DNA of 64,000 nt from Spizellomyces punctatus DAOM BR117 (taxonomy: Eukaryota): NCBI GenBank assembly GCA_000182565.2, contig KQ257471.1; one strand, given 5' to 3'. Both the position numbers and the translations under genes were made by a program. The notes beneath the pieces are model-generated. The model was not told where the DNA came from and ran no database searches. It saw only the letters and a list, made by a program, of their open reading frames with translations. Shown here piece after piece: positions 1 to 21,797 of this stretch (the stretch's first letter is position 1; each line of letters starts with the position of its first letter).

Positions 1-369
1 CCAGAGCCCAAACTGCCTTTTCAATGCTTTTTCAATTCTACCCCTGTTACCCCCCACTAAATATGTTGTTACTCCTCATCGTCGAAAAGTGTCGCATTAT
101 CCCAACATTCATCACTAACAGTTGATCATGTATCCACAGAAAAAGTCTGTAAATTTCTTGTCCTTTTGTGTCCCATCCACATTCCACTCGTCAATTTTCA
201 GTCGAGATTCCTTGACATAATTGTCAAGGTAGACTTTCAATCGCTCCACAAGATGACCTTTTTTACCTTTGAAGTATTCCTGGATTTCTCGATCCATTTT
301 TCCTCGGATCTCTGCTGTAGTAACAAAGCAGTCGAGATCATCAACCTTTTCAATGTGTTCATTGATCCA
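1..369. repeat. Inner part of left inverted repeat (reverse complement of 20802-21171)
   Basis: Base-by-base match; I saw only one substitution (FFCGY vs FFRGY) and one C/G-run indel. Confidence 0.95.
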
Positions 370-477
370 ACATTCGAAGATATGGAGGAACAGTGGAGTT
401 GTTGCTTGTTCACCTGTGTACAACTTAGGTTGATGGTTGAGGATGAAATGCAGGACATCGACTCAATTGAAAGCCAT
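115..477 (-). pseudogene. Chimeric ORF: short unique N-terminus fused to the last ~85 aa of the primase-helicase
   Basis: ATG at 477, in-frame TGA at 463-465, then in frame with WINEHIEKVDD...YMINC, matching the C-terminus of 18381-21056. Confidence 0.5.
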
Positions 478-770
478 GTTAAATTACTGGCATTTTTAGA
501 GCTTTTATTAGGAGCATGTGAGGGCTTATCAGCGTCAATGGGAATAAAACTGTTATCTTAGTCGAGTGTTATGTAATAGACCCGTGCATCGCTGCACAAA
601 AAGCTGTGTTGGCATCTGTGTTTCAGATGCGTGTGGTTTCTTTTTCGTTTCTTTTTGTGGTCAGTCCAACGAAAGAAGCCATGAAAAGGAAAGGACTGTA
701 TGACCCAATGGGGATACAGTTCTCCATCTGCATCACCATCTTTTTATAGAGAAAAAAAGGGAAGCCGTGT

Positions 771-1082
771 TCACGTTTCCATCCGCATTTCTAGAACAAA
801 GAGCCTTTCATTATGATTGTGTCCTAAGAGAACGCAATCCTGCAAGATGGCTAAGTAGCCGGAATTTCGAAAGCAGATTTCATCCAGTTTCTTCAAGTGG
901 ACGATTGACATAATCTCTTTGAAGATGTGTTCGTTCTGGTCTGTTTTCGGAAGAAACAATATGATACATTTTTTATCTCCTGTCATCATACCTTGACAGT
1001 ACCTCCAGAAGTTACACATGTCGCCCTTCACGGCGTCCTTGATGTTCAATACTGAATGACCTTCAATATCTGCGTGTCGCAT
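771..1082 (-). CDS. Hypothetical viral protein (103 aa)
   Basis: ATG ORF co-oriented directly downstream of the fibre gene; no recognisable motif. Confidence 0.45.
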   Translation of the reverse strand: MRHADIEGHSVLNIKDAVKGDMCNFWRYCQGMMTGDKKCIILFLPKTDQNEHIFKEIMSIVHLKKLDEICFRNSGYLAILQDCVLLGHNHNERLFVLEMRMET

Positions 1083-1131
1083 TCTTATCTTGCATAGCTT
1101 CTTTTTTAAATGATGGCAGTGCGCGCGTCAT

Positions 1132-7239: not shown

Positions 7240-7311
7240 GTTATATTGTAGCTAGGAAGTAAAATTTGAGGAGCTTGGCAAAAGACGAAGTGCTCGACGG
7301 GCGATAAAACT

Positions 7312-8772
7312 TTACGCTATCCTCTGTTTCTTCCTCGGTGGAAGTGTGACATCTGCTCCTTTTCTCCTTCTACTTCGAACTGTAGGTTCGACATGAACTG
7401 TTTGTGTTGGAACCAGTGGTACAACATATTCCGCTTCACGTTGTCCTCGCAATCTTGTGAGTGGACGTACTTCACTTCCTAAGTCCGCGGTTAGCGGTAC
7501 TAACGTTGGAGGATTGACAGCAACATTCGGAGGTGCTGGTGCAAAATTGACTTTTCTCCTATTTTTGGCTCGTATATGTTTTTCAACTTCTTCAGGGGAT
7601 GTTAATCTAATTTCCTCTACTTCCTCTCGTTCGGGTATAGAAGAATCTATTCTTTGTCTTTTTACCGTGGTCTGCTTATCATCTGGTTGTTTGTACTGTC
7701 TTCTTTTGGTTCCATGAGGAGCAACTCCAGCAAAAATCACATCCGGAGGACGTGGAGGAGCAACAGGTGATGGGGTTGATGGTGGAGTTACTGGCTCTGT
7801 TTTTTGCTTCTTTTTATTCAACCGAGGAATCGGCGGGGGTGCATTTGCTTTCCTTTTGGAACCTGCTAATATGGTTGCTTCCTTACCTTTGAAGTGAAAT
7901 GGAGTTCTAGCAGGAACCGGGATAAATTTTTCATTGACGGAGTTTCTCTCTAAAACATCCGCTACACCAGACGGATCATGGCGGTCATTCAGGAGTACTG
8001 TATCATGTGGAATTGGTGCGGCACTACGAGGCATTGTTTCCACGGAGGCATTGATTTGAGGAGATTCCACATGAACCTCTGGAGTCAAGCCAGGGAAACT
8101 GCCTGGAATCAGTGGAATATAAGCATCGGACATTGTCATCGCATCCAATGGAACAGCAGCGCCAGTCCCATGATTGACACGGTCATTTCCAACTGCATCT
8201 CGTCTAATTTCCGTCTCCCTTGTTAGAATTACAGGTTCTAGGGGAGTAGAATTTACATTACATGGCTGTGCTGGAATCTCATTTCCATTAGGTGGTGCTT
8301 CAAACATTAAGCCCGTTTGGGAAGTCACTGATGCGGGATAGGAAAACACATGCCCAGATTCATCAGGAATCGGTAGTCCTGAAAGGGAATTTTGCATTCC
8401 AATGGTCAATGCATTCCCTTGTCTACTTGGAGTAATCGAATCAAGATACTTCTGTTTCTTCCTGTAATCTTCCTCTGCTTTAACATATTCAAGACCATCC
8501 CTGTAAGCCTTGGTAGTTCGTTGGGCAGCCGAAAATTTCAGAACATCAGAAGATGAGAGCCTCGGTTCATATTTCGGTGCTGCATAGTTCGTCTTTGTTG
8601 CTAGGTCTTTCTCATGGACATTGCGGTTCCACGAATAGACAACTTGTGGTCGTCCGAGGATATCAATCTTTGAATAGTCTAGTGCGACACCCACTTGACG
8701 TTTTTGCAGATTTGGAATCGGTGGCGAAATAGCATATGTATCACTCAAGTAATTGGCTCGGTAATATGCCAT
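7312..8772 (-). CDS. Basic Pro-rich protein, possible core/DNA-condensing protein (486 aa)
   Basis: Long ORF with several NLS-like basic clusters (KRKANAPPP, NKKKQK, PPRKKQR). Confidence 0.6.
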   Translation of the reverse strand: MAYYRANYLSDTYAISPPIPNLQKRQVGVALDYSKIDILGRPQVVYSWNRNVHEKDLATKTNYAAPKYEPRLSSSDVLKFSAAQRTTKAYRDGLEYVKAEEDYRKKQKYLDSITPSRQGNALTIGMQNSLSGLPIPDESGHVFSYPASVTSQTGLMFEAPPNGNEIPAQPCNVNSTPLEPVILTRETEIRRDAVGNDRVNHGTGAAVPLDAMTMSDAYIPLIPGSFPGLTPEVHVESPQINASVETMPRSAAPIPHDTVLLNDRHDPSGVADVLERNSVNEKFIPVPARTPFHFKGKEATILAGSKRKANAPPPIPRLNKKKQKTEPVTPPSTPSPVAPPRPPDVIFAGVAPHGTKRRQYKQPDDKQTTVKRQRIDSSIPEREEVEEIRLTSPEEVEKHIRAKNRRKVNFAPAPPNVAVNPPTLVPLTADLGSEVRPLTRLRGQREAEYVVPLVPTQTVHVEPTVRSRRRKGADVTLPPRKKQRIA

Positions 8773-8837
8773 ACTAGGTTTTTTCCTTTGCTATGTAGAG
8801 CTGAAAAAATAATATCTCTTCTGTTCTATAAATCAAG

Positions 8838-9137
8838 ATGCCTAATTGGTTTTCTAAAGCGAAAGCAAAGGCAAATGTTCTGTGGAATAACACGCCTAAC
8901 TATGTAGCAAAAGCAAGGAACTTTGCCAATCAAGCAGTCCGGCATGCCACTACGTTTAATAAGCATATACAGCACGTAAACCGCCAAGTACAAGAATCTC
9001 CTTTATTTTCACAGGGTATTCGGGAAAAGTCACAGAAGATTTCCAGTCATGGAGACACTGGGCTGAGGAAACTTACAGAACTTCACAAGAACGCTGACAA
9101 CTTTGTTGAGAGGGTGGCAGGTGGTAGAATCAAGTGA
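8838..9137 (+). CDS. Small basic amphipathic protein (99 aa)
   Basis: ATG ORF; N-terminus MPNWFSKAKAKANVLW has an amphipathic helical pattern. Confidence 0.6.
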   Translation: MPNWFSKAKAKANVLWNNTPNYVAKARNFANQAVRHATTFNKHIQHVNRQVQESPLFSQGIREKSQKISSHGDTGLRKLTELHKNADNFVERVAGGRIK

Positions 9138-9144
9138 TCTAATC

Positions 9145-9286
9145 CAGTGAACTACTGCTATTTGGGTGGCGAGGGTGATTGACCCCGATCTCGGGTTCTA
9201 TGTATAACATGTTACTGGACTTCGGGGTCATTTACCCTCAACCTACATCCAACCCCATAATCAAACAGGTAGCGTGTGGTTGTCTA
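9145..9286. repeat. Non-coding stem-loop element; diverged inverted copy at 21648-21797
   Basis: 18-bp stem 9171-9188/9222-9239 (GAGGGTGATTGACCCCGA / TCGGGGTCATTTACCCTC); flanks also align with the second copy. Confidence 0.8.
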
Positions 9287-9372
9287 AGGGAAGCTTGAAA
9301 GAGAAAGAGCCAAACGGCGGACAATGTTCACTGCGCTCTTGGCGCCCCAGGCGGGCTATCAATTTTAACCCT

Positions 9373-10626
9373 TCAAACCACGGTAACAACAGCACCAATG
9401 GAAAGCGTAACATTCTCGAAATAGTTGGTGACCATGCGCACCTTTTGCGTAGGTGCCATTGCATGAGTTGTGTGCACACGAAGCAAACCGTCACTGCCTG
9501 TAAAACTCAATGCCGCCTGACTGCCTTCATCCTTGCTGGCAAAACTCCATCCAAATGAAAAGGCTTTTGAATCATAATCTGCGAATGACATATCCATCTC
9601 CCCGAGTTGGTCAAAGTTGTTATTTGATAACTGTGTGACCAGTAACGTTTGATTATCAGATGGGCTATGGCTGAACCCTTGCGTTCCACTTGGAATGGTA
9701 AGATTTGGCCCCAGTTGAATACGCCACTCGCGTAGCCCTTGTGAAGAGTACATTAGCGCCTTATCTTTCGTCTGGTCATTGAGAACATCATCGTCCACAA
9801 ACGACATTTCGATCCCTTGAAGTGACCTTACACCACTCATATGAAGCAAAAATGTATTCCGGTTTCCGCCACTACATGCGTTTTCCATTTGGGTTGAGCG
9901 CACATAGTCATAGAATATTGGCTTTCCATCACTTATAGCACGTGTTGAATTGATGACGCTGCTTGGTGGTGGTGTAACATACGAAATTAAAGTTCTGATA
10001 TTCGATACTCTTATCTCTCCAACTCCAGCCGATGTAAAGACGGTTGAAGGATCCGCAAGCGTGATTATGATTTCGAGTGCTTGATTTGGAAGTGCCCAAA
10101 CAGGGAAGAACTGGTCATTTGTCGGATGAAAGAAACCCACAAAAGGGTGATGGTTGATGGAGATGGTACTCGATGTTGCAAAGATATTGGTGTTTCCATA
10201 TCCGGAAAGTTGGCTCAACAATTTCTTACTACCGGCAGATAGATTGCGGTATGTTTGTACTAGATAAAGAGGATAGTTTGGTATGTTAACAACTGTTTCA
10301 CCTCCTGCTTTGATGGTCAATGATTGAATAATGGATTCCAAGCCAAGATACATGTTTTTAACACCTGTACCAGGAGTTATCAGGTTCCCTGCATTATCGT
10401 ATGCAGAAACATCCATTGACAGAATTAGTTTCTGCAAAATGAAAGAGACCGAATTCGAGTCGCAAGTGATCTTAATCGGAGTCAGGTTTCTTGACTTTGT
10501 CGTATATGTACTTTGACCTATCGGAGAATAGATTGACACCCCCTCACCGCAAGGATCGGAGTAACTTTTGGCGAAGGAATTGGTTGAGAAGATCCAGTTA
10601 CGTGGTACAGCAACTTCTTCTGACAT
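9373..10626 (-). CDS. Major capsid protein (double jelly-roll, PLV type)
   Basis: 417 aa, beta-rich; ESIIQSLTIKAGGETVVNIPNY resembles the PLV/virophage MCP N-terminal motif; near penton and ATPase. Confidence 0.8.
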   Translation of the reverse strand: MSEEVAVPRNWIFSTNSFAKSYSDPCGEGVSIYSPIGQSTYTTKSRNLTPIKITCDSNSVSFILQKLILSMDVSAYDNAGNLITPGTGVKNMYLGLESIIQSLTIKAGGETVVNIPNYPLYLVQTYRNLSAGSKKLLSQLSGYGNTNIFATSSTISINHHPFVGFFHPTNDQFFPVWALPNQALEIIITLADPSTVFTSAGVGEIRVSNIRTLISYVTPPPSSVINSTRAISDGKPIFYDYVRSTQMENACSGGNRNTFLLHMSGVRSLQGIEMSFVDDDVLNDQTKDKALMYSSQGLREWRIQLGPNLTIPSGTQGFSHSPSDNQTLLVTQLSNNNFDQLGEMDMSFADYDSKAFSFGWSFASKDEGSQAALSFTGSDGLLRVHTTHAMAPTQKVRMVTNYFENVTLSIGAVVTVV

Positions 10627-10684
10627 CTTTGTTTACTGATTGCAGGAAAAAAAAAATGGAAGATTTTTCAGCCAAAATACCACC

Positions 10685-11197
10685 ATAGTTGTCCTCCTCA
10701 ACATTGTCCTCCTCAAAGAACGGTGATCTAGAGTCAAAGAATGGTTCATCATCACCGAATTTCAAAATTATGCTCTTTTTTTTAGATGGATGTATTGCTG
10801 CTGGCTGCGCCTTTGCTGCTGGTTTGGATCTCTTGCTCCTAGTTGGTGTTGCCTTCTTTCCTCGCTTTGTGTTTCGTCATTCTTCCCTCGCCAACTGCTT
10901 CTGTTCCTTCTCCTCTTCAAGGATGCGTTTGGCCTCATCGATCCTCCTTTGTTTATCCTGCTCCTTCCGTTCCTTCTCGCATTTTGCTTGCATTAGGCGC
11001 AATTGTTCAGCCCTCGCTTTCTGCGCCTTCTCCAATGCAGCCCGTTGCTTGTCCGTCATCGGGCGTTTCACCTTTTGCTTTGGAGGCTGTTCTGGTATAA
11101 TTTCTGCTTTTTGAACAGGTGCTTGTTCAGCGGATGTTTCTACATTCTCTTGTGGGACGGCACTCGATTCTTGATGATTTTGATTTTGCTCTTCCAT
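10685..11197 (-). pseudogene. Small basic coiled-coil protein, interrupted by TGA at 10877-10879 (3' end approximate)
   Basis: KRPMTDKQRAALEKAQKAR motif; the frame continues past the stop (RNTKRGKKATPTRSKRSK...FFEEDNVEEDNYG). Confidence 0.55.
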
Positions 11198-11223
11198 TGT
11201 TTTCTTACTCTAAGAAAAAAAAA

Positions 11224-11943
11224 TTAAACATCCACAACATCATCTGTAAATGCAAACTGAACGGTTAACGGACTGTTGAGTGAAACTTCCAAACCGGTCA
11301 TCGAGTCAATAAGATAGAATTCGATTTTGGAGATAGTATCATCAACAGGGAGCCATTCACCACCATCGTTAGTCCATGTGACTACATCACCGAAACTATC
11401 AGGGACAACCGCAGCAATTACGGATTGGGCGGAATCATTGAAGTCACTGAGGAAACGGCTTCCTTGGACTTGGATGTTGCTTGTGACAAGCATTGGATAC
11501 GAACCGGACAAATTGACAGCATTCTTCAGTGTGATAGTCTTGTAATATCCCGTTTCACTCCATCTTGACATTCCTGTTAGAAGATAAGAGGATGTTCCTC
11601 TCGAAGCAGCAAGAACTTTGTAGTTCTTGCTACCAGATGTGGAAAGTGTCAATCTCCTCGTAACAGAGTCATATGTGGCATTGTAGGCTTGCGTCCCGGC
11701 TGAACTCAATGCTTGAGCAACTGCATTTGGAAAATTAGCGATGCTGTAATTACCATTAGGTATTTTCGCAGATAAGATGGTTGGATCGCCTTCTTCAACA
11801 AAATTAATCGTGTTATTAGAATCGTTGACCAGATCCCAATCTTGAAGGAAAGAAACCAAGAGAACCTTCATCATTTCCATCCTCCAAGGAGGTATTGAGA
11901 ATGATCGAGATTTTAAGGAGCAGTATGTCACTTCGTTAATCAT
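11224..11943 (-). CDS. Minor capsid protein (penton)
   Basis: 239 aa; VNDSNNTINF...IPNGNYSIANF...YDSVTRRLTL pattern typical of PLV pentons. Confidence 0.75.
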   Translation of the reverse strand: MINEVTYCSLKSRSFSIPPWRMEMMKVLLVSFLQDWDLVNDSNNTINFVEEGDPTILSAKIPNGNYSIANFPNAVAQALSSAGTQAYNATYDSVTRRLTLSTSGSKNYKVLAASRGTSSYLLTGMSRWSETGYYKTITLKNAVNLSGSYPMLVTSNIQVQGSRFLSDFNDSAQSVIAAVVPDSFGDVVTWTNDGGEWLPVDDTISKIEFYLIDSMTGLEVSLNSPLTVQFAFTDDVVDV

Positions 11944-11984
11944 GATATTTCCTTACCTTTATGTAAAGACAAAGGAAAATTTAA

Positions 11985-12689
11985 ATGTCCTATAAACCAC
12001 GCCCAATCTTTCCCGTAGGGAAAAAGAAGAGAGATCCTCGTGTTCCACATGACCTGGCATCACTGCCTCTATGTACAACTCTTGTCGCTCTGAGGAAAAG
12101 TGGTAAAAGTGCATTAGTCTGCGGTCTGATTGAGGATGTCTATGCTAAATTACACGATCGAGTCATTATCATGTCCGACACAGTCGAATACGATGCTTCT
12201 GTGAAGGTACTGGCTGAAACCACAAAACATAAAAATATCTACTTTACAGATGAGGTTTCCAATGCATCCATTGCTAAAATTGTAGAAGAACAGAAGAAAA
12301 TGCCTGAGAAGTCACTTCTATTATTCATTGACGACGCTGGTGATTCTGCGCAAAGTAAAGAACTCAACAAGGAGTTATCGAAACTCTATACAAAAGGGAG
12401 GCATTTCAATATAGGAAATATTGTAGCCATCCAGAGTGTAACCGGACAACTTTCACGTAAAATGAAGAACTGCACCACCGAGTGGGTGGTGTTTAAAAAC
12501 AATGCAGAAGACATGAAACTTTTAGCAAAGTTACTTGCTTCCGCCTACAAAGATGATAAAGAAGTTCTAACATTTCTCACCGAGTGCACCAAAGAACCTT
12601 ATTCGTTTGCCTACATCAATAGAGATGCTAGTGATGCTAAAGGAATGTATCGTTACTGTGACTCCAGCGGGTTTCATGATTACTTTTAG
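11985..12689 (+). CDS. A32-like FtsK/HerA genome-packaging ATPase
   Basis: Walker A ALRKSGKS, Walker B LLFIDD, GRHFNIGNIVAIQ motif. Confidence 0.92.
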   Translation: MSYKPRPIFPVGKKKRDPRVPHDLASLPLCTTLVALRKSGKSALVCGLIEDVYAKLHDRVIIMSDTVEYDASVKVLAETTKHKNIYFTDEVSNASIAKIVEEQKKMPEKSLLLFIDDAGDSAQSKELNKELSKLYTKGRHFNIGNIVAIQSVTGQLSRKMKNCTTEWVVFKNNAEDMKLLAKLLASAYKDDKEVLTFLTECTKEPYSFAYINRDASDAKGMYRYCDSSGFHDYF

Positions 12690-12790
12690 TTGCTGGCATT
12701 GGCACTCCGTACCGGGTGCTCGAAGAGCACTGTTAACGCACGTGGAGCGTGCTTTACCGGCATGTTTTTAAAGCTGATCTTATCGATAAG

Positions 12791-14077
12791 ATGGAGGAAA
12801 GGAAGCCTAACTGGAAAGATATAACATGAGAAGATGAGCAGCATTTAAAGCAGCTCTACTATAGAGAGCATGCTTACATGGGCAGAGATCGTTTGTACGC
12901 GCTTTACAAAGCAAAGTACCCAGAGAGCGAGATTTCCCAAAGGACCTTGTTAGCATGGTTGAAGACCAACCAATTTGGCAGCGTTGGAGTCGTCCCTTGA
13001 CCANNNNNNNNNNNNNNNNNNNNNNNNNNNNNNNNNNNNNNNNNNNNNNNNNNNNNNNNNNNNNNNNNNNNNNNNNNNNNNNNNNNNNNNNNNNNNNNNN
13101 NNNNNNNNNNNNNNNNNNNNNNNNNNNNNNNNNNNNNNNNNNNNNNNNNNNNNNNNNNNNNNNNNNNNNNNNNNNNNNNNNNNNNNNNNNNNNNNNNNNN
13201 NNNNNNNNNNNNNNNNNNNNNNNNNNNNNNNNNNNNNNNNNNNNNNNNNNNNNNNNNNNNNNNNNNNNNNNNNNNNNNNNNNNNNNNNNNNNNNNNNNNN
13301 NNNNNNNNNNNNNNNNNNNNNNNNNNNNNNNNNNNNNNNNNNNNNNNCAGGAGCCCTCAAACCAATGGACAGGTAGAAAGGATGAATGGCATGATAAAGC
13401 GAGCGCTATTCATGGGGATGCGTTTAGGAAATAGAGACTGGGTGAGTATGTTGCCACAGATTGTAGAGAACATTAATTCCACAGTAAGTTTTGGCAGTGG
13501 TAAGAAACTTCGGATGGTACAAGAGATGGAGGCAGATGTTCAAGGAGCGGCTCAAGCCCAACGTGCGCTTAGGACTAAAGGAAAGGGTGTGAAGGTACTA
13601 CCTCCATTCAATGTAGGTGATGTTGTCAGAAAGTACATATCAGGTCAAGGGACGGATATAAAAAGGCGTGCTAAAATGGGTTACTTTTCTGAAGAGAAGT
13701 ATGAGATAACAGCCGTTGTTCCTAATCCTCACCCTAACTACATGAACTCTTATAAAATCAAATCTGTCAATACTAATCACATACTGCCAGGTCTATATCC
13801 GGCTTGGCAATTGCGTCTAATTCCTAAAGAGGATGCCGCTGGGGAGGCTCCGCAAGTTGAACCTGAGATTGAAGATGATGAAGAGGAAGTACCAGAAGGT
13901 GAGTATGAAGTTGAAGCATTGTTAGATAAAAGAACACGTCGAGTCGGTGGAAGACAAGTAGTAGAATATGAAGTATTATGGAGAGGATATGACCGTGATC
14001 AGTCAACTTGGGAGCCGAGAAGTGAACTTATACGTAATGCAAGAGATGCAGTAAATGATTATGAAAATAGTCACTAA
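12791..14077 (+). pseudogene. Retroviral-type (rve) integrase with C-terminal chromodomain; disrupted, core in an N gap
   Basis: ATG 12791, early TGA, HAYMGRDRLY N-domain, apparent frameshift near 12965; after the gap SPQTNGQVERMN, FNVGDVVR and chromodomain EYEVEALLD...YEVLWRGY...STWEP. Confidence 0.85.
13004..13347. other. Assembly gap (N run)
   Basis: Run of n. Confidence 1.
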
Positions 14078-15075
14078 TTCCTAGGCTGTTCTACAAATGA
14101 CTTGAACAGATTGTAATAGCGCTGATGAACAGCATAGGTATGACCCATCCTACGTTCGATTTCCTTCTGATAAGCGTGATCTCCATTATCCCTTTCAGAA
14201 AGATGCATCCCCACTGAAATTCGAAGGCGTTTCTGTGTTACACGCTTTCCAAACATTCGTTCCATAGCATTACTAAATTCGTCGCTATACCAGGCATCGG
14301 TTGGAATACTTCCATCAGGTTTTAGAAAAAGACGATCCTGTCCATTGCCCTTTCTGACATTTGCTAACATGTTAACATATGGTTGAATGGTGTTTCCCAT
14401 CTGAATGAGGACATTCTTTTCACCAGTCTTATTGCATTTTCGGATGAAGACAGTTTTCCCTTCATTGTTCACCATAACATTAGCGTCTTCACTAATCATC
14501 GCTTTGAAAATATCGCATCTACGAATTTTATCTGCATCCAGGTTCATCCCAAGAGCAATTAGAAATTGATGCTCCACTATATTTCCCTCATTGATGAATG
14601 TCAAAGCGACTTTCAATCCTGCTAAGAGTTCGCTGTAAGGGACATAATTGGCGATATCTTCCTGGGTCATCTCTTGGGATGCTGCTTCATTTTTTGACTG
14701 TTTGAACCTTTCGAATGTCACATTCTTGAAGTGAGAGTGGAATGTGTCTGTAAAATGACTGTCAAGGTCGTCCATTGCATCCTCTGCTAGATGAAGGATC
14801 ATTGCCTTTTCAGCCCTCGTAGCATTGCGTGCTATTTTTGACACCAATTTGATATAATTGTAATATGTATGCTCGTTTGTCCATTTTTCCTTGATCCTGC
14901 TAATGAGTATCTCAGGTGTTTGGAACAAGGAAAGAAGATTGTTGCCTTTGAGTTGATTTAGACGCGATTTATCCTGTTTCTTGGTGTTGGGTGACTGCTG
15001 AATCCTGTCAAGGATGGCATGTAGCGTTTCATATAGAGCCGACTCGGCATCAATGGGTTGGTGGTCTTGTTCCAT
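14074..15075 (-). CDS. Tyrosine recombinase (PLV/NCLDV type)
   Basis: IRRCD (R), NKTG (K), FGKRVTQKRLRIS (xxxR), MGHTYAVHQRYY (H...Y) in correct order. Confidence 0.82.
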   Translation of the reverse strand: MEQDHQPIDAESALYETLHAILDRIQQSPNTKKQDKSRLNQLKGNNLLSLFQTPEILISRIKEKWTNEHTYYNYIKLVSKIARNATRAEKAMILHLAEDAMDDLDSHFTDTFHSHFKNVTFERFKQSKNEAASQEMTQEDIANYVPYSELLAGLKVALTFINEGNIVEHQFLIALGMNLDADKIRRCDIFKAMISEDANVMVNNEGKTVFIRKCNKTGEKNVLIQMGNTIQPYVNMLANVRKGNGQDRLFLKPDGSIPTDAWYSDEFSNAMERMFGKRVTQKRLRISVGMHLSERDNGDHAYQKEIERRMGHTYAVHQRYYNLFKSFVEQPRN

Positions 15076-15176
15076 TTTCAGGGCTGATCTGTATTCTAAG
15101 GATAGAAGCCGGTTTACCTCTTATATAGACATTTTATTTCATGTTTTATCGATAGATTTTCTCCATCTATCGACCT

Positions 15177-15713
15177 ATGCCAGAACATGTTGTCCTTGAC
15201 ACTGAATCATCTATTGTAGATAAGATTTTCCCTCTAGTCGAACAACTGTACCGAATTCTTGCCAATGCTTCTGGGAAACCACCCACACCACCACCTGATG
15301 GTAAGACGATCAATATAATGTTAGCGGAAGATGAATCCATTTTAAGATGAATGTTTACGAGGTTCTGGAAGAGAGAACCTAATGTTACGGTATTCACAGC
15401 ATCTGATGGTATTGAGGCCATTGAACTCTTTAAAAAGCAACGATTTAATATCATTTTTGTTGATATCGACATGCCTTACAAAAATGGAGTGGAAGTAGCA
15501 CGTGAAATAAGACAGTATGAGAGGGAACACAATCTAGATCAAACGCCTATAATAGGAGTGTCTGGATTCACGGAGCGTCAGTACAAGGAACAGGCTTTTG
15601 CTGCCGGTATGAACAAATTTGTATCAAAAGGAACAGGGTATCAATTGAAAGATATTTACAGAATCGTTGTAGAATACTGTGGAGATCCACTTCGAGGCAA
15701 AACAGATCGATAA
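15177..15713 (+). pseudogene. Response-regulator receiver (REC) domain protein; one in-frame TGA at 15348-15350
   Basis: ATG 15177 in frame; IMLAEDE acidic pocket, ASDGIEA, IFVDIDMP phospho-acceptor Asp, PIIGVSG, AGMNKFVSK. Confidence 0.88.
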
Positions 15714-15736
15714 AAAAAAAGTATATAGTTTTTCCA

Positions 15737-15970
15737 TCAAGTATTTTTCGCTTGGATCATACATCCGTCCCAAGCTATAATGCTATCCTTCTTTGCTAAT
15801 GCTTTTGACCTCGTTATCATATATTCCCAGCAATAAAAGATGCGTTCCCCGATAGCGGGCTTGTCGTGAAGAAGTTTGACTTTGTTGCAATACGTTACAT
15901 ATGCTTCTTCACCCACTGTGGTACACCCGTGCTTCTCGCGGCTTTCTGCAAATTCATAGGCGCATTTCAT
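15737..15970 (-). CDS. Hypothetical small viral protein
   Basis: 77-aa ATG ORF, no motif. Confidence 0.3.
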   Translation of the reverse strand: MKCAYEFAESREKHGCTTVGEEAYVTYCNKVKLLHDKPAIGERIFYCWEYMITRSKALAKKDSIIAWDGCMIQAKNT

Positions 15971-16063
15971 TCGCAGATTATGTCCACGCGCAGCTATCCT
16001 TTGTGTACAGGCAACGATTTCTTTGAATTCATCAACAGTAGTAGCCCTTTTTGTCCACTCTTC

Positions 16064-17301
16064 TCATATCGTCTGCATCCGCATTTCATTCCGGTTCGAT
16101 TCTGTGCCGCCGTGCATCGAATTCAGAGGAGTTTCTTGCATTCGTGCCTCCACCGCGTCGCTGTAGATGAGCGCACTAAGGTCTCTCAAACGCGTTTGTT
16201 CAGCTTCCACCTGTGCATCACTGCGCTTGTTCGAGTGAGCTGAGGCATCCGGTGCAGGCGGTTGTGTTACGGGGGTTTGTTGTTCTTCTGGCGACGTCTC
16301 AGCGTTCCCCCTTTGGGGGGACGCGCTGGGGCGAAGCCCATCGGCGCGCTCCTTCGAGCGCTGTGAGCTGTGGTCTGTAGCCGTTGTGGGTTTCCTTGGG
16401 GGTGCTGTAGCTGTTGTGGGTTTCGTTGTGGTGCTGTAGCTGTTGTGGGTTTTCGTTGGGGGTGCTGTAGCTTGTGTGGGTTTCCGTTGGGGNNNNNNNN
16501 NNNNNNNNNNNNNNNNNNNNNNNNNNNNNNNNNNNNNNNNNNNNNNNNNNNNNNNNNNNNNNNNNNNNNNNNNNNNNNNNNNNNNNNNNNNNTGGGTGCT
16601 GTAGCCGTTGTGGATTCTGTTGCGGGTTGGTGGGCACGTCCACATTCAACACTGTTTTTCCACTGCCTGTTTCTCCTTTCGATCCATCTACCAATCAGAT
16701 CGTGCCAATTATTGATGGCCTGTGTCCACTCCGTTCGCCATTGCTGTTGTTGTTGGTCCCCCTTGTCCGGATGATAGTGTCGAAGGACATTCCTATGCGC
16801 GCGGCTTAATTCCTCCCGTGTGTTGGCTTTCATCTGGAAAAACCGAGCCAAGAAGTCCATGTTGGCATCGGTGATCTTTTTGCTTGACAATAGCGGCGGA
16901 TTGGCATCGTATTGCACTGGTGTTTGTTGGTGAGGAATAGCAAATTCTTCAGTGCCTCGACCAGCAGAAGACTGTCCACCACGCTGCTCGGTCGTCCTCT
17001 GTCGTTTCTTGGATCTCGTCCCCGGATCTGGTTGGACATCCGGTTCCTTGCGACGCTTGCCGTTTTGAGCACGACCAGTGGTGAGCTTGAACAGATGGTC
17101 GTAATGGGCAAAGAGGAGATCGTAGAGTGTGTTGTAAGAAGCACTCGGCACGGAGATGTCGCCTACATGGATGAGGTGGAATTTCTCTCGACACGTTTGG
17201 TGAACAGCATCTTCTACAAGGTTTGTGCTTTTCAGGGACGTCCGCACAGCCGTCGTTAGCTCATCGATCAGGGTCATTTTTTGTGGCGTTAGTATCCCCA
17301 T
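16064..17301 (-). CDS. J-domain (DnaJ, HPD) protein with Thr/Ala/Pro tandem-repeat linker; spans an N gap
   Basis: ELSRAHRNVLRHYHPDKGD...WTQAINNW; ATG at 17301; the C-terminal part is probably ORF 16064-16645, frame across the gap uncertain. Confidence 0.72.
16372..16620. repeat. ~30-bp tandem repeat inside the J-domain gene, with 100-N gap at 16493-16592
   Basis: Recurring GTGCTGTAGCTGTTGTGGGTTT units on both sides of the gap. Confidence 0.85.
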
Positions 17302-17613
17302 CGTGCGACAGGGGCTATATAAGCTAAAATTTTCGAATCGATCGATTGATGGGCACCACGCCACACCTCTGCGAACCTAAAAATGCAAAATTTTCGTGTT
17401 GCGTGACATGACGCATCTGTAAGCCACAAACCAATGAACCAGTACCATACGACCCTACCACCAGTAGGGTTGACTTTATGATCTATCTGTCTAGATTTTC
17501 GTGCACCAATGCACGGATTTTTATGGGTCTTTACATAAGCAGCTCTTTTTACTTTGATCTATCTGGAACGAAAGACGTCACATTTAAAAGCTGATTTAAT
17601 GTCAATATACAAC

Positions 17614-18030
17614 ATGTCCGGAAATCCCAGAGAAAGACCGTGTCGTGACTGCTTAGAGGTGATCCCTTGGGTGGCTCGACATATCAGATGTTTACATTGC
17701 TACATCAAGTACAAGGAACTGAAGTTAGCAGAAGCCATTGATCACTTCATGCGTCAAGATGATTCTGATTCTGAGTGACACCTTAACAACGCAGTGAAAA
17801 ATCACATTCCTGTCATCTTCGATTGTGGGCATCATGTCTGCGCAGAGTGTTTTGTCAACTGCTACAACTCAAACGAAGAGAATAGCCGCAGGTGTCCTTC
17901 CGAGCAAATGATTTCAACTTGTGGCATCGATCACCTGGCAATTCATCAATGGATTCACCCCTCCTCTAAAGTTACACCGGTAACCGAGGAGCATCATTGC
18001 CATGATAAAATCACCATTCATCATATATAG
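17614..18030 (+). pseudogene. Zn-finger/RING-like protein split by TGA at 17776-17778
   Basis: CRDC, CLHC, then in the same frame after the stop CGHHVCAEC...RCP. Confidence 0.5.
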
Positions 18031-18411
18031 TCCAGTCCTTTCTTCTAAGACATGCTTCAAACCATAGGATGTGCTTTTTGACATACTTCGGTGTACCCGA
18101 AACACCTTTGGAATTAGTTGTATCCCCCTTTCAATGTTAGATATATTGAACATCTTCACATTATCTTCTAAAGTCGGTCTTTCTTTTGACGGCTTTCTCA
18201 ACGATGTCCCAGCAAGTTCATTCCCAAATTGAGTTAATAATACATTAGAAGGAAGCCTCGACAGTACATTCTTGATTTCATCTAAGGTTACCATTTCGAT
18301 GCTTTTTTGTATGTTTATAAAAGCTCCCAGAAAAAAAACATTTTGTGCGTTTATTGCATTTTTCTCAATAACTGCAATTATTGCATTTAGGAACAGCGAT
18401 AAAAATCTCAA
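17914..18411 (-). CDS. Hypothetical protein with SYGLKH motif (true start probably the internal MVTLDE)
   Basis: STSYGLKHVLEERTGLYMMNGDFIMAMMLLGY, a motif I recall from uncharacterised viral/phage proteins. Confidence 0.6.
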   Translation of the reverse strand: MRFLSLFLNAIIAVIEKNAINAQNVFFLGAFINIQKSIEMVTLDEIKNVLSRLPSNVLLTQFGNELAGTSLRKPSKERPTLEDNVKMFNISNIERGIQLIPKVFRVHRSMSKSTSYGLKHVLEERTGLYMMNGDFIMAMMLLGYRCNFRGGVNPLMNCQVIDATS

Positions 18412-21056
18412 CTGACTATCAACAAACCATGACTGTAGAAATCACCAAACATAAGCAACCAGAATCTGAAGGAACCTTCGTTACTATGGACAAGAAACTG
18501 AAACTCGACCAAAAGCCAAAGATGTTATTCCGTAAAGACTATTTTGGAATTGATAATATTATCAAGTGGGATGTTGAAGAGTATGTCAATAATCACAAGA
18601 AGTATCCCTACTTGACAGAGTTCATTGGTGCTCTACCGGATGACCATGAGATAAATGCCTTTGTGGATTTCGACCTTTCTTATGCCACAGAAGAAGATTT
18701 ACCCTCGGATGAGGAAGAAGATGCTATTCAAATTTTTGTTCTGCAAACTTTTGAATCCTTATTTTTAAATGATCTTTTTTCTTACCGATGTGCATTTTGC
18801 AGGAAAGGCTTTGCGTCTAAGAAAGAGAAGAGTGAAGAGACAGGAGAATATGTAGAGAAGGGCAAGTGGAAAGTATCGTTCCGCATCTTTGCTGACCTGC
18901 GCACCACTCATAAAGAGATGCGAAACCGCTTGCTTCACTACTTTCCCGACATGAGCAAAGCGCCTGCTTGTATTCGTGATAAGACTTTTGAGCATGATTC
19001 GTTTTTTGACCCTTCCGTCTATGAAAAAAATCGCAAGATTTGCTGCGTGGGGAAGAGAAAGAGCCAATATGACTCGCGGGTTCTAGAACATCTTGATACC
19101 GCCGACCCATTAGAAGCCTTCTTGATTCAACACATCGACAAGTATGCAGAATGTGCGGAGTGGGCTATTCAAATGGCAGATCAAAAAGAAGCCCCAAAAA
19201 AGCAAAAGACCTCTACAAAGTCCACGAAGAAATCCAATGATTCTTTTGAGCAAATGGCAAAGGAAGTTATTCTGGAATCATTTCCTAATGTGTACCTGCT
19301 TCGAGATCTCGGGAAAGCCGATCAATTAGATCATGGAATCAATGTCTTTGTCAAGACAAAACACTGCTTTCTCATCGACGCCAATCATGATGTATCTGTG
19401 GCTACTATGTACTTCTCCATCACGAAGTCAGGAATCAAGTTTACATGTAAGCAATGCGATGAGGAGACCGATGCAAAGCCTCACAAGCATACTGGCATCA
19501 AAAAATTGTTCACTCGGATTAACAGTCCTATCCAATCAGATGATGCTCTTTTACATGCATTAACTTCTCCTAGCCATCTCGGTATTGCCCGGGCACTAGC
19601 GGCGAAAAGCGAGGGTGACATTCTCTTCGATGGTAGCAACTTTTGGATGTTTCGGAAGCAGTGGGTTATCATAGCCGATCAAGTTGTCCGGCTATTTATG
19701 AAGAACACGTTGAACCCCCAGTGTGAGCAGTACGTAACAGAACTTTATGATCGTCTATCTGAAGAAGAGGATAAAGACAAGAAAGCCGACATCTTGGAAC
19801 AAATAAGGAAAGTCGAACGCGGGCACAAACTTTTAACTACTAACACCGACATAAAATCCATCATCTCTTGCCTCAAAACGGAGGTGTACAACGAGGGCTT
19901 CCTGAAATGCCGAGATAACAACCCTAATATTATTGGATGCAATAACGGGTACTTTGATCTGCGGGATTATACTTTCAAGCAGTACACAAAGGACATCTTC
20001 ATCACGCATACTGTTGGCTATGACTACTTTGAACGGGATGAAGATTTTGACCCAGACACATATCAGCAAGTATTAGGTGTCGTGGCACAATACTTCCCAG
20101 AGGATGACGAACGAGAGATCGCTCAAATATTCTCAGGATACTGTCTACGTGGTGATCATAAGGAGAAGATCTTTTGCGTTTTCACCGACAAGAGCGACGG
20201 CTTCAATGGTAAGACAAAGTTTGCTCAGATGATCACCATTGCTATGGGAACTTATGCGACCGAAGGTAACAACGATCATCTATATGTAAGTACCAGGTTC
20301 TCGAACCAAAATGGTCATAATGCAGCAATGTTTGCCCACGAAGGAGACCGACTGGCAATCTATGATGAGATGGATGAAAAGAAGACTATAGACACGAAAG
20401 AGATGAAAAGACGCAATGGAGGCGCTACTAGAGGCAAAGGTTGTAGACCATCTTCAAAGGAGTTTGAGTTTGTCGATTTCATGACAAAAATGATCATGAT
20501 TTTTAACAATGGAAACCAACCGAAATACGATACCAGTGATAATCCTTTCCTGGAGCGGATGCTTGTATTGCCTTTTCGAGCCAAGTTCCTTAGTCCCGCT
20601 GAGTACGAAAAATCGGAATATCAATACAAATTCTTAGCAAATCCTCACATCGACGAACGTTTCTCTGTGTGGCGTCCTTACATACTCAAGTGGATGATTG
20701 AAGGGCACAAGAAGTACATGGAAAAAGGATTTAATGACATCCCGGCTGAATGCCGTAAGTGGAAGGAAGATGTCACCAAAGACGTTGATAACATAGAAGA
20801 ATGGATCAATGAACACATTGAAAAGGTTGATGATCTCGACTGCTTTGTTACTACAGCAGAGATCCGAGGAAAAATGGATCGAGAAATCCAGGAATACTTC
20901 AAAGGTAAAAAAGGTCATCTTGTGGAGCGATTGAAAGTCTACCTTGACAATTATGTCAAGGAATCTCGACTGAAAATTGACGAGTGGAATGTGGATGGGA
21001 CACAAAAGGACAAGAAATTTACAGACTTTTTCCGTGGATACATGATCAACTGTTAG
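18381..21056 (+). CDS. AEP primase-polymerase fused to D5-like superfamily 3 helicase
   Basis: AFVDFD (motif I), KVSFRIF (motif II variant), FDPSVYEKNR (motif III), C/H cluster, D5_N IGCNNGYFDL, Walker A GFNGKT, LAIYDE; first ATG ~18429. Confidence 0.92.
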   Translation: MHLGTAIKISTDYQQTMTVEITKHKQPESEGTFVTMDKKLKLDQKPKMLFRKDYFGIDNIIKWDVEEYVNNHKKYPYLTEFIGALPDDHEINAFVDFDLSYATEEDLPSDEEEDAIQIFVLQTFESLFLNDLFSYRCAFCRKGFASKKEKSEETGEYVEKGKWKVSFRIFADLRTTHKEMRNRLLHYFPDMSKAPACIRDKTFEHDSFFDPSVYEKNRKICCVGKRKSQYDSRVLEHLDTADPLEAFLIQHIDKYAECAEWAIQMADQKEAPKKQKTSTKSTKKSNDSFEQMAKEVILESFPNVYLLRDLGKADQLDHGINVFVKTKHCFLIDANHDVSVATMYFSITKSGIKFTCKQCDEETDAKPHKHTGIKKLFTRINSPIQSDDALLHALTSPSHLGIARALAAKSEGDILFDGSNFWMFRKQWVIIADQVVRLFMKNTLNPQCEQYVTELYDRLSEEEDKDKKADILEQIRKVERGHKLLTTNTDIKSIISCLKTEVYNEGFLKCRDNNPNIIGCNNGYFDLRDYTFKQYTKDIFITHTVGYDYFERDEDFDPDTYQQVLGVVAQYFPEDDEREIAQIFSGYCLRGDHKEKIFCVFTDKSDGFNGKTKFAQMITIAMGTYATEGNNDHLYVSTRFSNQNGHNAAMFAHEGDRLAIYDEMDEKKTIDTKEMKRRNGGATRGKGCRPSSKEFEFVDFMTKMIMIFNNGNQPKYDTSDNPFLERMLVLPFRAKFLSPAEYEKSEYQYKFLANPHIDERFSVWRPYILKWMIEGHKKYMEKGFNDIPAECRKWKEDVTKDVDNIEEWINEHIEKVDDLDCFVTTAEIRGKMDREIQEYFKGKKGHLVERLKVYLDNYVKESRLKIDEWNVDGTQKDKKFTDFFRGYMINC

Positions 21057-21114
21057 TGATGAATGTTGGGATAATGCGACACTTTTCGACGATGAGGAGT
21101 AACAACATATTTAG

Positions 21115-21450
21115 TGGGGGGTAACAGGGGGTAGAATTGAAAAAGCATTGAAAAGGCAGTTTGGGCTCTGGATGAAGCATGTAGGGAAAAGAGAGAAGAG
21201 CTCAACCCCCTGTCACTTTTGACTCCATACATGTAGAGACGTACCCCTGTAACCCCCTGTTTTTCATATACGGAACAAAAAAATATATAGAGAGAACCTT
21301 CTCTCTTTTAGAAAACAAAACTAAATATGTAAAAAGATAGGGGTTATAGGGGGTAGCCCTTGATGCTATGTAGAGTGGAAGGACAGGGGTTGGACAGGGG
21401 GTATGGAGGGAAAACCGGCTCTACATACCCCCTGTAAAAGAGGGGGTAAG
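21115..21450. promoter_or_regulatory. Candidate replication origin: CCCCTGT/ACAGGGG iterons around an AT-rich core
   Basis: Multiple copies in both orientations; inverted pair ~21242-21260 / ~21338-21355 flanks an A/T-rich tract. Confidence 0.5.
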
Positions 21451-21647: not shown

Positions 21648-21797
21648 TAGATAACCACGTGCTACCTGTGTTGATTATTGGGTGGTGTAGGTTGAGGGTG
21701 AATGACCCCGAAGTCAACTTGTATGTTATACATGGAAACTGAGATTGGGGTCATTTACCCTCGCTACCCAGATAGCAAGGGAAACCTGGTTCACTGC
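21648..21797. repeat. Second, inverted copy of the 9145-9286 stem-loop element
   Basis: Stem 21694-21711/21745-21762. Confidence 0.8.

What the first reader, a model, noticed from the sequence alone, without database searches (positions are those of the whole stretch)
15177..15713. Virus-encoded two-component receiver domain: possible phosphorelay decoy
Seen: a complete REC domain once the single TGA at 15348 is read through, with LAEDE, phospho-acceptor D in FVDIDMP, S in IGVSG and K in FVSKG; intronless and inside the virus. Known: the EHNLDQTPIIG...AGMNxF style resembles receivers of hybrid histidine kinases and Ssk1-type regulators in fungal His-Asp phosphorelays. Inferred: a captured stand-alone receiver that drains or senses host phosphotransfer, tying virus activation to stress signalling. 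I know of no such gene in small DNA viruses of eukaryotes.
Basis: partly seen in the sequence, partly recalled or inferred. Interest (0 to 1): 0.87.

Follow-up and report, generated by a model that had tools for sequence, protein, structure and literature searches.

The report
Host-derived receiver gene in chytrid virus
A 21-kb virus-like element integrated in a chytrid fungus genome carries a signalling "receiver" gene copied from a fungal gene family, but this copy is broken by a stop codon and its proposed decoy role is untested.

Summary
Read through the TGA at 15348-15350, ORF 15177-15713 gives a complete Response_reg domain (Pfam 74.3 bits, E 1e-20) with all five catalytic residues (E51/D52, D96, S129, K151). 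It lies inside an element of at least 21.2 kb bounded by inverted repeats, with capsid, A32 ATPase, chromo-integrase and D5 primase-helicase genes. This belongs to the published Polinton-like virus group of Spizellomyces punctatus.

The receiver is not Ssk1- or Skn7-like. It nests within a family of intronless ~450-aa proteins that look like degenerate hybrid histidine kinases with an intact C-terminal receiver. The two named members are chytrids. The virus kept only the receiver plus an unrelated 41-residue leader.

TGA is a true stop here, because the capsid gene ends in TGA. In DNA reads 4 of 9 show TCA (Ser) at this codon, and another copy has a different stop (R89*). Copies differ at pN/pS of about 0.8, and RNA reads are almost absent. 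This copy is therefore a decaying pseudogene of a once-intact viral accessory gene.

GenBank annotates it as host gene SPPG_08459, with a 99-nt "intron" that hides the stop. Giant viruses and phages already encode receiver domains; I found none reported in Polinton-like viruses. The decoy or sensor function is inference only.

The parts
1..21171 (.). Integrated Polinton-like virus (S. punctatus group). The left end coincides with the window start, so it may extend further left.
   Evidence: Terminal inverted repeats. Capsid, A32 ATPase, chromodomain integrase and D5_N primase-helicase genes. Ty3 and copia retrotransposons begin at about 23.9 kb.
1..383 (.). Left terminal inverted repeat
   Evidence: arms 41-383 / 20788-21130, 343 nt at 98%; arms 1-55 / 21117-21171 at 91%.
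20788..21171 (.). Right terminal inverted repeat, overlapping the 3' end of the D5-like ORF
15177..15713 (+). Receiver (REC) gene, 178 codons with one in-frame stop; annotated publicly as SPPG_08459
15348..15350 (+). In-frame TGA at codon 58, in helix alpha1. Other copies read TCA (Ser).
   Evidence: at 15349, 4 of 9 DNA reads of run X17 and one contig of run X2 carry C; the capsid gene ends in TGA, so TGA is a stop in this element.
15300..15686 (+). Receiver domain proper (residues 42-170), the part homologous to the cellular ~450-aa family
   Evidence: 94 of 129 residues identical (73%) to the C-terminus of the L001 450-aa ORF, from residue 42 on. AlphaFold2 model, mean pLDDT 85.5, with five strand-helix units.
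15177..15299 (+). 41-residue leader with no detectable homologue; predicted helix 11-30 followed by a Pro-rich linker
   Evidence: The alignment to P0015 over this part is weak.
15462..15464 (+). Codon of the predicted phospho-acceptor Asp96
   Evidence: Alignment to 3c97; invariant column in 25 sequences
15301..15399 (+). 99-nt GT..AG 'intron' of the public gene model. It removes residues 42-74 (strand beta1, E51/D52, the stop).
   Evidence: P0280 equals the window translation minus residues 42-74. The stretch is coding by homology. No read joints were seen (table 5).
15149..15173 (.). 9-bp inverted repeat (TCGATAGAT, 7-nt spacer) just upstream of the ATG. A related contig departs from the window at 15171.
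   Evidence: 2 matches in the window, expected 0.29. table 7.
9373..10626 (-). Major capsid protein, 417 aa
   Evidence: Atlas score 0.98 to viral clusters, some carrying DJR-like, Capsid_N or Capsid_NCLDV families at 10-18% of members. 68% identical to a protein named 'hexon [Powellomyces chytrid fungus MELD virus 5]'.
11985..12689 (+). A32-like packaging ATPase
   Evidence: Pfam Pox_A32, 31.2 bits, cut-off 22.8
13382..14077 (+). C-terminal part of an integrase with a chromodomain. The upstream part lies in an assembly gap, N 13004-13347.
   Evidence: Chromo E 3.2e-13; N runs
14074..15075 (-). 333-aa ORF, divergent neighbour of REC, unassigned
   Evidence: 0 Pfam families and 0 PHROGs families
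18381..21056 (+). D5-like primase-helicase, 891 aa
   Evidence: Pfam D5_N, 28.4 bits, cut-off 22.4

Best explanation
The ORF is an accessory gene of an endogenous Polinton-like virus of the chytrid Spizellomyces punctatus. An ancestor of this virus copied the C-terminal receiver domain of a cellular gene. That gene encodes a ~450-aa degenerate hybrid-histidine-kinase-like protein. The virus joined the receiver to a new 41-residue leader with its own start codon.

The ancestral viral protein was an intact, phosphorylatable single-domain response regulator. The copy in this window has since been disabled by a nonsense change at codon 58, where other copies read TCA (Ser). It now drifts neutrally, as expected for an integrated, silent copy.

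Shown: the domain, its catalytic residues, its viral location, its cellular ancestry, and the stops and variation among copies. Inferred: the intact protein, having no output domain, took phosphoryl groups on Asp96 from the host His-Asp relay (an HPt protein or hybrid kinases). By doing so it acted as a phosphate sink or as a mimic of the host protein's receiver.
For: Domain. Pfam gives 74.3 bits on the read-through. The AlphaFold2 model has mean pLDDT 85.5 and five strand-helix units. The catalytic residues align with solved receivers.

Viral location. The gene lies between inverted repeats 1-383 and 20788-21171, together with capsid, ATPase and D5-like genes. A second genomic copy has the same arrangement: capsid SPPG_07589 and receiver SPPG_07595 share one 579,104-bp contig. 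A Polinton-like virus in S. punctatus is published (PMC7805220, passages read).

Ancestry. A search of 1.84 billion representatives finds the closest relatives to be 404-467-aa proteins with a C-terminal receiver, up to 76% identical. A family profile scores the window protein at 214.5 bits; the best protein outside the family scores 121.2 (249 proteins scored). In a tree of 38 receivers the family is one side of a branch (99/95). The window protein sits in a 100/98 clade of 8, sister to P0006+P0007 (88/87).

Cellular status of the source family. Three metagenome loci carry single uninterrupted ORFs of 450, 475 and 466 aa. Two of them share an upstream neighbour that is 64% identical.

The source is kinase-like. 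hhalign against 12 true hybrid kinases gives probability 99.9 with 313 aligned columns. The alignment runs from the kinase dimerisation helix through the ATPase domain to the receiver. ShkA aligns over model residues 97-447.

Past constraint. In the receiver, 32 of 32 columns conserved at 90% or more in 24 other members are kept. The terminal branch (0.19) is no longer than its sisters' (0.12, 0.27).

Decay now. TGA is a true stop, because the capsid gene ends in TGA. At 15349, 4 of 9 DNA reads show C. At 15441, 2 of 10 reads and two contigs show T, which turns CGA into TGA (R89*).
Against: No intact copy was shown. The window copy has TGA at codon 58. A paralogous contig has R89* plus changes at invariant G78 and G144. 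The codon-58 state of the second annotated copy is hidden by its gene model.

The differences among copies give 6 synonymous and 17 non-synonymous codons, pN/pS about 0.8. That shows no current constraint. The list is incomplete: 12 further differences were not shown.

Expression is almost absent. Only 14 RNA reads lay on 3 kb, and 12 of them were only 90-95% alike.

The gene is not universal. Only 2 receiver models are annotated against at least 6 capsid loci in the genome. One related contig leaves the window sequence at 15171. No close short receiver was returned from other Spizellomycetales (4 hits among 46 candidates).

The conservation argument is weakened by missing data. The host's own full-length homologue was not available, so the capture could be recent.

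No result bears on phosphotransfer or on any effect on the host.
Confidence: 0.55

Rival explanations
1. Passenger fragment. The virus picked up the 3' end of a host gene by chance recombination, and the fragment never had a function. It spread with the element and is simply decaying.
For: pN/pS among copies is about 0.8, and two different stops are seen. RNA reads are almost absent. The gene is patchy: 2 annotated receivers against at least 6 capsid loci, and one related contig diverges at 15171. No relative was found in IMG/VR viral contigs.
Against: The captured piece begins and ends at the domain boundaries (residues 42-170). It has its own ATG and leader, with a TATATA at 15122-15127. There is no frameshift. 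All 32 of 32 highly conserved receiver positions are retained despite 24-27% divergence from the nearest cellular relatives. The element carrying it made at least two or three copies.
Confidence: 0.27
2. Ordinary host gene as annotated (SPPG_08459), with a real 99-nt intron, which merely lies within or beside viral DNA.
For: Public gene models for both copies use the same GT..AG in-frame intron. The donor reads G|GTAAG.
Against: The gene lies 15 kb inside a repeat-bounded element. A second copy has the same position relative to the capsid gene. The 'intron' encodes strand beta1 and helix alpha1 at 73% identity to cellular homologues, which are uninterrupted ORFs there. Splicing would delete the metal-binding E51/D52. 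No read joint was seen, though RNA depth was near zero.
Confidence: 0.05
3. The window copy is really intact. On this reading the TGA is an assembly error, or an allele present in only some cells.
For: 4 of 9 DNA reads of run X17 show C (TCA) at 15349.
Against: 5 of 9 reads show G. One contig of run X1 carries the window's letters at 15336-15349. The C-bearing contig differs from the window at 27 of 569 positions, so it is another copy. The public gene model avoids this codon.
Confidence: 0.08

Closest known systems
~450-aa degenerate hybrid-histidine-kinase-like proteins with a C-terminal receiver (unnamed family; named members only in Gaertneriomyces semiglobifer and Blyttiomyces helicus)
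   Same: The receiver is 45-77% identical and carries the same distinctive tail (KGxGYQxKDIYxIVVxYCG). The window protein nests inside this family.
   Different: The viral protein lacks the N-terminal coiled coil and the ATPase-like domain, and has an unrelated 41-residue leader. It also carries an in-frame stop.
Hybrid histidine kinases of phaeoviruses (EsV-1, FirrV-1)
   Same: Two-component domains encoded by a latent, integrating dsDNA virus of a eukaryote. They have been proposed to link viral activation to cues (PMC12993054 and PMC6324907, passages read). They are the top BFVD structural matches.
   Different: Those are 300-kb-class giant viruses carrying whole kinases of 447-933 aa. This is a 21-kb Polinton-like virus carrying a receiver only.
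Receiver-sized proteins of other giant viruses and phages (Hokovirus 122 aa, Tupanvirus 174 aa, Klosneuvirus 192 aa, Fadolivirus 206 aa; phage CheY-like proteins)
   Same: Stand-alone or nearly stand-alone receiver fold in a virus. Among 31 matches with E <= 0.001, 19 are from giant viruses, 8 from phages and 4 are unnamed.
   Different: A different virus realm or class. None of the 27 named matches is a Polinton-like virus, virophage or polinton. Sequence identity is 12-25%.
Receivers of fungal hybrid kinases and of Ssk1 that exchange phosphate with Ypd1 (PDB 8phn, 8pdc, 8phx, 2r25/1oxb, 5kbx, 3c97)
   Same: The same fold and catalytic residues. The model of the cellular homologue matches 8phn and 5kbx at Z 21.0. 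By sequence the window protein matches 3c97 at E 2.9e-14 and 5kbx at 4.9e-9.
   Different: Identity is only 27-30%. The lysine is followed by Gly, not the usual Pro (FVSKG). There is no Ssk1 or Skn7 architecture.
Unclassified fungal response regulators made of a receiver only (survey PMC8510515, passages read)
   Same: A receiver without an output domain. That survey suggests output by protein-protein contact or participation in a phosphorelay.
   Different: Those are treated as host genes. This one is carried by a virus. In the passages found by my term search, that paper does not mention Spizellomyces.

Membership tests
Response regulator receiver domain (Pfam PF00072) | Profile match above the curated cut-off | tested here: met
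   74.3 bits against a cut-off of 30.2, profile positions 1-100 of 111
Response regulator receiver domain (Pfam PF00072) | Five alternating strand-helix units (CheY-like fold) | tested here: met
   AlphaFold2 mean pLDDT 85.5. Strands 45-50, 70-75, 92-96, 125-129 and 147-150 alternate with helices. BFVD matches are receivers.
Response regulator receiver domain (Pfam PF00072) | Catalytic set: acidic pair, acceptor Asp, Ser/Thr, Lys | tested here: met
   E51/D52, D96, S129 and K151 align with 3c97. They are invariant or nearly invariant in 25 sequences.
Response regulator receiver domain (Pfam PF00072) | Uninterrupted reading frame in this copy | tested here: not met
   TGA at 15348-15350. TGA is a genuine stop in the element.
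Response regulator receiver domain (Pfam PF00072) | Phosphorylation on the acceptor Asp | not testable with these tools
   Needs biochemistry
~450-aa degenerate hybrid-kinase-like family | Receiver of the family type | tested here: met
   214.5 bits with the family profile, against 121.2 for the best outsider. Nested in the tree.
~450-aa degenerate hybrid-kinase-like family | N-terminal coiled coil plus ATPase-like domain | tested here: not met
   Homology starts at residue 42, and the leader has no match. The protein is derived from the family but is not a full member.
Ssk1 / Skn7 fungal response regulators | Family architecture (Skn7: HSF-type DNA-binding domain; Ssk1: long N-terminal region before the receiver; both recalled, from no call) | tested here: not met
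   Pfam finds only the receiver in 178 residues
Ssk1 / Skn7 fungal response regulators | Phylogenetic grouping with Ssk1 or Skn7 receivers | tested here: inconclusive
   No Ssk1 or Skn7 sequence was placed in the tree. Ssk1 (5kbx, E 4.9e-9) scores below hybrid-kinase receivers (3c97, E 2.9e-14).
Polinton-like virus (context of the gene) | Double jelly-roll major capsid protein | tested here: inconclusive
   Atlas score 0.98 to viral clusters, with capsid families on 10-18% of members. A homologue is named 'hexon' of a chytrid MELD virus. No fold was computed for it.
Polinton-like virus (context of the gene) | A32-type packaging ATPase | tested here: met
   Pox_A32, 31.2 bits, cut-off 22.8
Polinton-like virus (context of the gene) | Terminal inverted repeats | tested here: met
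   343 nt at 98% plus 55 nt at 91%
Polinton-like virus (context of the gene) | Replication gene (primase-helicase or protein-primed polymerase) and an integrase | tested here: met
   D5_N, 28.4 bits, cut-off 22.4. Chromodomain at the integrase end; the catalytic core falls in an N gap.

The most novel reading that the evidence does not exclude
An intact allele exists, either in the second genomic copy or in a still-infectious relative. It encodes the first two-component signalling protein of a Polinton-like virus: a host-derived receiver that takes phosphate from the chytrid His-Asp relay. It thereby either resets host stress signalling or tells the latent virus when to reactivate.
Probability: 0.2. 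Interest if true: 0.7.

Novelty: new member of a known kind. Interest (0 to 1): 0.42.

Why it matters
Polinton-like viruses are small, and little is known about how they talk to their hosts. A receiver gene taken from the host would be a concrete and testable link between such a virus and fungal His-Asp signalling, in a chytrid that can be grown in the laboratory.

There is also a practical point. Two S. punctatus genes (SPPG_08459 and SPPG_07595) that count as host response regulators in public proteomes are viral. Their gene models hide part of the domain, and surveys of fungal two-component systems should take that into account.

The ~450-aa degenerate hybrid-kinase-like family from which the gene came appears to be undescribed in the papers I searched.

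Tried and rejected
- **TGA read as a sense codon.** Rejected. The capsid gene ends in TGA at full length like its homologues, and 7 of 28 long ORFs end in TGA.
- **Whole genome.** Not held. The second copy, the host's own homologue and other element copies could not be read.
- **IMG/VR viral contigs.** No relatives were found with the receiver, the 486-aa ORF, the ATPase or a capsid alignment. These scans are pattern-limited.
- **RNA evidence.** No RNA holder was listed. RNA run X16 laid only 14 reads and showed no joints.
- **Broad family alignment A1.** A narrower alignment, A2, was then used.
- **N-terminal part of the cellular family.** Pfam gives nothing below E 0.19. The kinase likeness rests on hhalign and one structural row.
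- **Neighbouring 333-aa ORF.** No Pfam or PHROGs family. My impression of a tyrosine-recombinase motif is untested.
- **Composition.** The receiver's GC (0.395) and GC3 (0.318) lie within the range of the element's genes and of the cellular homologues, so they say nothing about the age of capture.
- **Loose-end 30-mers.** The two from related contigs are not in the window.
- **Earlier scan notes.** Nothing.
- **Complex prediction.** Not run, because no host HPt sequence was at hand.
- **Supplements.** The supplementary tables of PMC7805220 (S4, S6) may list this gene but could not be read.

Full report
**1. The observation**

The stretch 15177-15713 (+) reads as one frame of 178 codons with a single in-frame TGA at 15348-15350 and no frameshift.
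- Pfam scores the 120-aa ORF after the stop at 64.9 bits for Response_reg, covering profile positions 20-100 only.
- The 57-aa ORF before the stop matches 0 families.
- Read through with X at the stop, the match rises to 74.3 bits (E 1.1e-20, cut-off 30.2) and covers profile positions 1-100 of 111. The stop therefore cuts one domain in two.
They align with the matching residues of a solved fungal kinase receiver, 3c97.
- They are invariant or nearly invariant in a 25-sequence family alignment.
- An AlphaFold2 model of the read-through protein has mean pLDDT 85.5. It shows five strand-helix units from residue 45 to 168, preceded by a helix at 11-30 and a Pro-rich linker.

**2. The setting**

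*The element.* Inverted repeats pair 41-383 with 20788-21130 (343 nt, 98%) and 1-55 with 21117-21171 (91%). The element is at least 21,171 bp long. Its left end coincides with the window start. Between the repeats lie:
- a 2035-aa ORF;
- a 417-aa capsid protein at 9373-10626 (-). Its atlas score is 0.98 to viral clusters, some with DJR-like or Capsid_N families on 10-18% of members. It is 68% identical to a protein named 'hexon [Powellomyces chytrid fungus MELD virus 5]';
- an A32-type ATPase (31.2 bits, cut-off 22.8), an integrase end with a chromodomain, and a D5-like primase-helicase (28.4 bits, cut-off 22.4).

Two assembly gaps (N 13004-13347 and 16493-16592) interrupt the integrase and a J-domain-like gene. 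From about 23.9 kb onward the window holds Ty3 and copia retrotransposons.

*The organism and the public annotation.*
- The capsid protein's relatives are all in Spizellomycetales genomes. Among them are S. punctatus loci SPPG_02195, 05090 and 08707 and SPPG_07203 and 07589.
- The window's own 417-aa capsid protein is listed without a name on a 321,667-bp contig. The same contig carries SPPG_08459, a 145-aa protein.
- That protein equals the window's receiver minus residues 42-74. So the window is S. punctatus DAOM BR117, and the gene is already annotated as a host 'response regulatory domain-containing protein'.
- A second annotated copy, SPPG_07595 (140 aa), shares a 579,104-bp contig with capsid SPPG_07589.

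*Literature.* One integrated Polinton-like virus in S. punctatus, and a metagenomic 'S. punctatus group' of 27 viruses, are published (PMC7805220; passages read). The term 'response regulator' does not occur in that main text. Its supplementary gene tables could not be read.

**3. Where the gene came from**

*The nearest relatives.*
- A search of 1.84 billion representatives gave 173,709 receivers at E <= 0.001, but only 22 at E <= 1e-30.
- Besides the second S. punctatus copy, the best are proteins of 404-467 aa whose C-terminal ~130 residues are 45-76% identical to the window protein.
- Pfam sees only the receiver in them.
- A profile of the family's receiver scores the window protein at 214.5 bits. 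The 32 top rows lie at 142-219 bits, and the best other receiver scores 121.2 (249 proteins scored).

*The tree.* An IQ-TREE tree was built from 26 family receivers and 12 outgroup receivers. I left out fragments and duplicates such as P0002, P0003, P0009 and P0158.
- The family is separated from the outgroup at 99/95.
- The window protein sits in a 100/98 clade of 8, sister to P0006 (446 aa) plus P0007 (404 aa) at 88/87. That bootstrap had not fully settled.
- Because the long architecture fills the family and the short viral form is nested within it, the virus took the domain from a cell, not the reverse.

*Extent of homology and taxa.* Homology to a 450-aa metagenomic member (L001) runs from residue 42 to residue 170, with 94 of 129 residues identical. 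The first 41 residues match nothing. The only named members are chytrids: Gaertneriomyces semiglobifer and Blyttiomyces helicus.

**4. What the source family is**

- Three metagenome loci carry the long form as single uninterrupted ORFs of 450, 475 and 466 aa.
- Two of them share a 64%-identical upstream neighbour. The third is followed by a C2H2 zinc-finger gene. This looks like chromosomal context, not viral.
- hhalign of 22 long members against 12 true hybrid histidine kinases gives probability 99.9 over 313 columns. The alignment runs without a break from the second helix of the dimerisation domain through the ATPase domain into the receiver.
- In that alignment the kinase's ATP-binding motifs (NAIKFT, DTGIGI, GGTGLGL) have no counterpart in the family consensus. 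By my reading, the position of the phospho-accepting His is not conserved either.
- The AlphaFold2 model of L001 (mean pLDDT 77.8) has two long helices and then an alpha/beta domain at 109-251.
- Full-length ShkA (6qrj) aligns over model residues 97-447. The receiver alone matches fungal kinase and Ssk1 receivers at Z 21.0.
- I therefore call the source a degenerate hybrid-kinase-like protein with an intact receiver. Pfam itself gives no kinase hit, so this label is supported but not proven.

**5. State of the gene**

*The stop is genuine.* The capsid gene ends in TGA at the same length as its homologues.

*Reads from coded public runs, laid on 13400-16450.*
- At 15349, 4 of 9 DNA reads of run X17 carry C, which gives TCA (Ser). 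A contig of run X2 that differs from the window at 27 of 569 positions also carries C.
- At 15441, 2 of 10 reads and two contigs carry T, turning CGA into TGA (R89*).

*Classifying the 25 listed differences.* They fall in 6 synonymous and 17 non-synonymous codons, over 117 synonymous and 417 non-synonymous sites. That gives pN/pS of about 0.8. The changes include invariant G78 and G144. Twelve further differences were not displayed.

*Comparison with the family.* The window copy keeps 32 of 32 receiver columns that are at least 90% conserved in 24 other members. Its branch is no longer than its sisters'.

*Reading.* The gene was under constraint for a long time, at least partly as a viral gene. 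The integrated copies now drift. The caveat is that the host's own long homologue was not available, because the genome is not held. Some of that conserved history may therefore predate capture.

*Other points.*
- RNA run X16 laid only 14 reads on 3 kb, 12 of them 90-95% alike, with no joints.
- The public gene models of both annotated copies remove 15301-15399 as a GT..AG intron.
- That stretch encodes strand beta1 and helix alpha1 at high identity to uninterrupted cellular ORFs. Its removal deletes E51/D52. I take it to be an annotation device around the stop.
- One related contig follows the window to 15171 and then continues with unrelated sequence. The paralogous contig departs after 15689. 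The receiver therefore sits in a variable slot of the element.

**6. Mechanism**

*Shown:* a captured receiver with a complete catalytic set and no output domain, inside a latent virus.

*Inferred:* an intact version would accept phosphate on D96 from the host relay.
- S. punctatus has hybrid kinases, including ethylene- and cytokinin-receptor homologues (PMC5285503, passages read).
- Receiver-only fungal regulators are thought to act through protein contacts or within a phosphorelay (PMC8510515, passages read).
- The viral protein could act as a phosphate sink, as a mimic of the host protein's receiver, or as a sensor for the virus.

None of this was tested. I put 0.55 on the whole reading (a captured, once-functional receiver that is now a pseudogene here) and roughly 0.2-0.3 on the decoy or sensor function specifically.

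**7. Comparison and novelty**

- Two-component genes in eukaryotic viruses are known. Phaeoviruses encode several hybrid kinases, which have been suggested to act in reactivation (PMC12993054 and PMC6324907, passages read).
- A structural search of BFVD with the viral model gave 31 matches at E <= 0.001. Of these, 19 were from giant viruses (8 of them phaeoviral), 8 from phages and 4 unnamed. None was named as a Polinton-like virus, virophage or polinton.
- Full-text searches found 0 papers with 'polinton-like' and 'response regulator'.
- They found 7 papers with 'virophage' and 'response regulator'; the 5 listed look unrelated by title.
- A four-term search was also run: polinton, receiver domain, CheY, two-component system. 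None of its 12 listed papers held the word 'polinton'.
- The adintovirus/MELD paper has none of 'response regulator', 'CheY' or 'receiver' in its main text.

The finding is thus a new member of a known kind: a virus-borne receiver domain, seen in a virus class where I found no report of one. Interest is tempered by the gene being broken, silent and patchy among copies.

Noticed in passing
window 17554-18030 (+): Two zinc-finger or RING-like ORFs (74 and 78 aa; weak RING Pfam hits, all below cut-off) lie in the same frame with a single TGA between them at 17776-17778. This may be a second gene of the element broken by a nonsense change, or two small adjacent genes.
   Followed up: partly
window 9156-9247 and 21686-21777: A 92-nt, internally palindromic repeat occurs once inside the element, between the 486-aa ORF and the capsid gene, and once just outside the right inverted repeat. 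The two copies are 85% complementary and 74% identical as direct copies over 69 nt. It looks like a small hairpin-forming mobile repeat.
   Followed up: no
window 20788-21056 and 61-561: The right inverted repeat overlaps the 3' end of the D5-like primase-helicase ORF. The left repeat therefore carries a mirrored fragment of that gene.
   Followed up: no
protein P0281 (SPPG_07203, 601 aa; not in the window): One S. punctatus capsid copy is annotated as a 601-aa protein that UniProt names 'AP2/ERF domain-containing'. This is either a fused gene model or a capsid copy next to an AP2-type gene.
   Followed up: no
L001 582-1934, L002 955-2382, L003 133-1533: A family of ~450-aa proteins looks like hybrid histidine kinases that have lost their ATP-binding motifs but kept an intact receiver. 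Pfam recognises only the receiver, and I found no description of the family in the papers searched.
   Followed up: partly
window 16267-17364 (-): An ORF with a weak J-domain match (HPD motif region; 17.8 bits, below cut-off) and a run of about 30-nt Pro/Thr-rich tandem repeats, interrupted by an assembly gap (N 16493-16592).
   Followed up: no
window 13400-16450, DNA reads of run X17: Read depth falls from about 7-10 over the integrase and 333-aa ORF, to about 5-7 over the receiver, to about 2-5 beyond 15650. Different parts of the element may be present in different numbers of copies. This is rough, because the library is ChIP.
   Followed up: no
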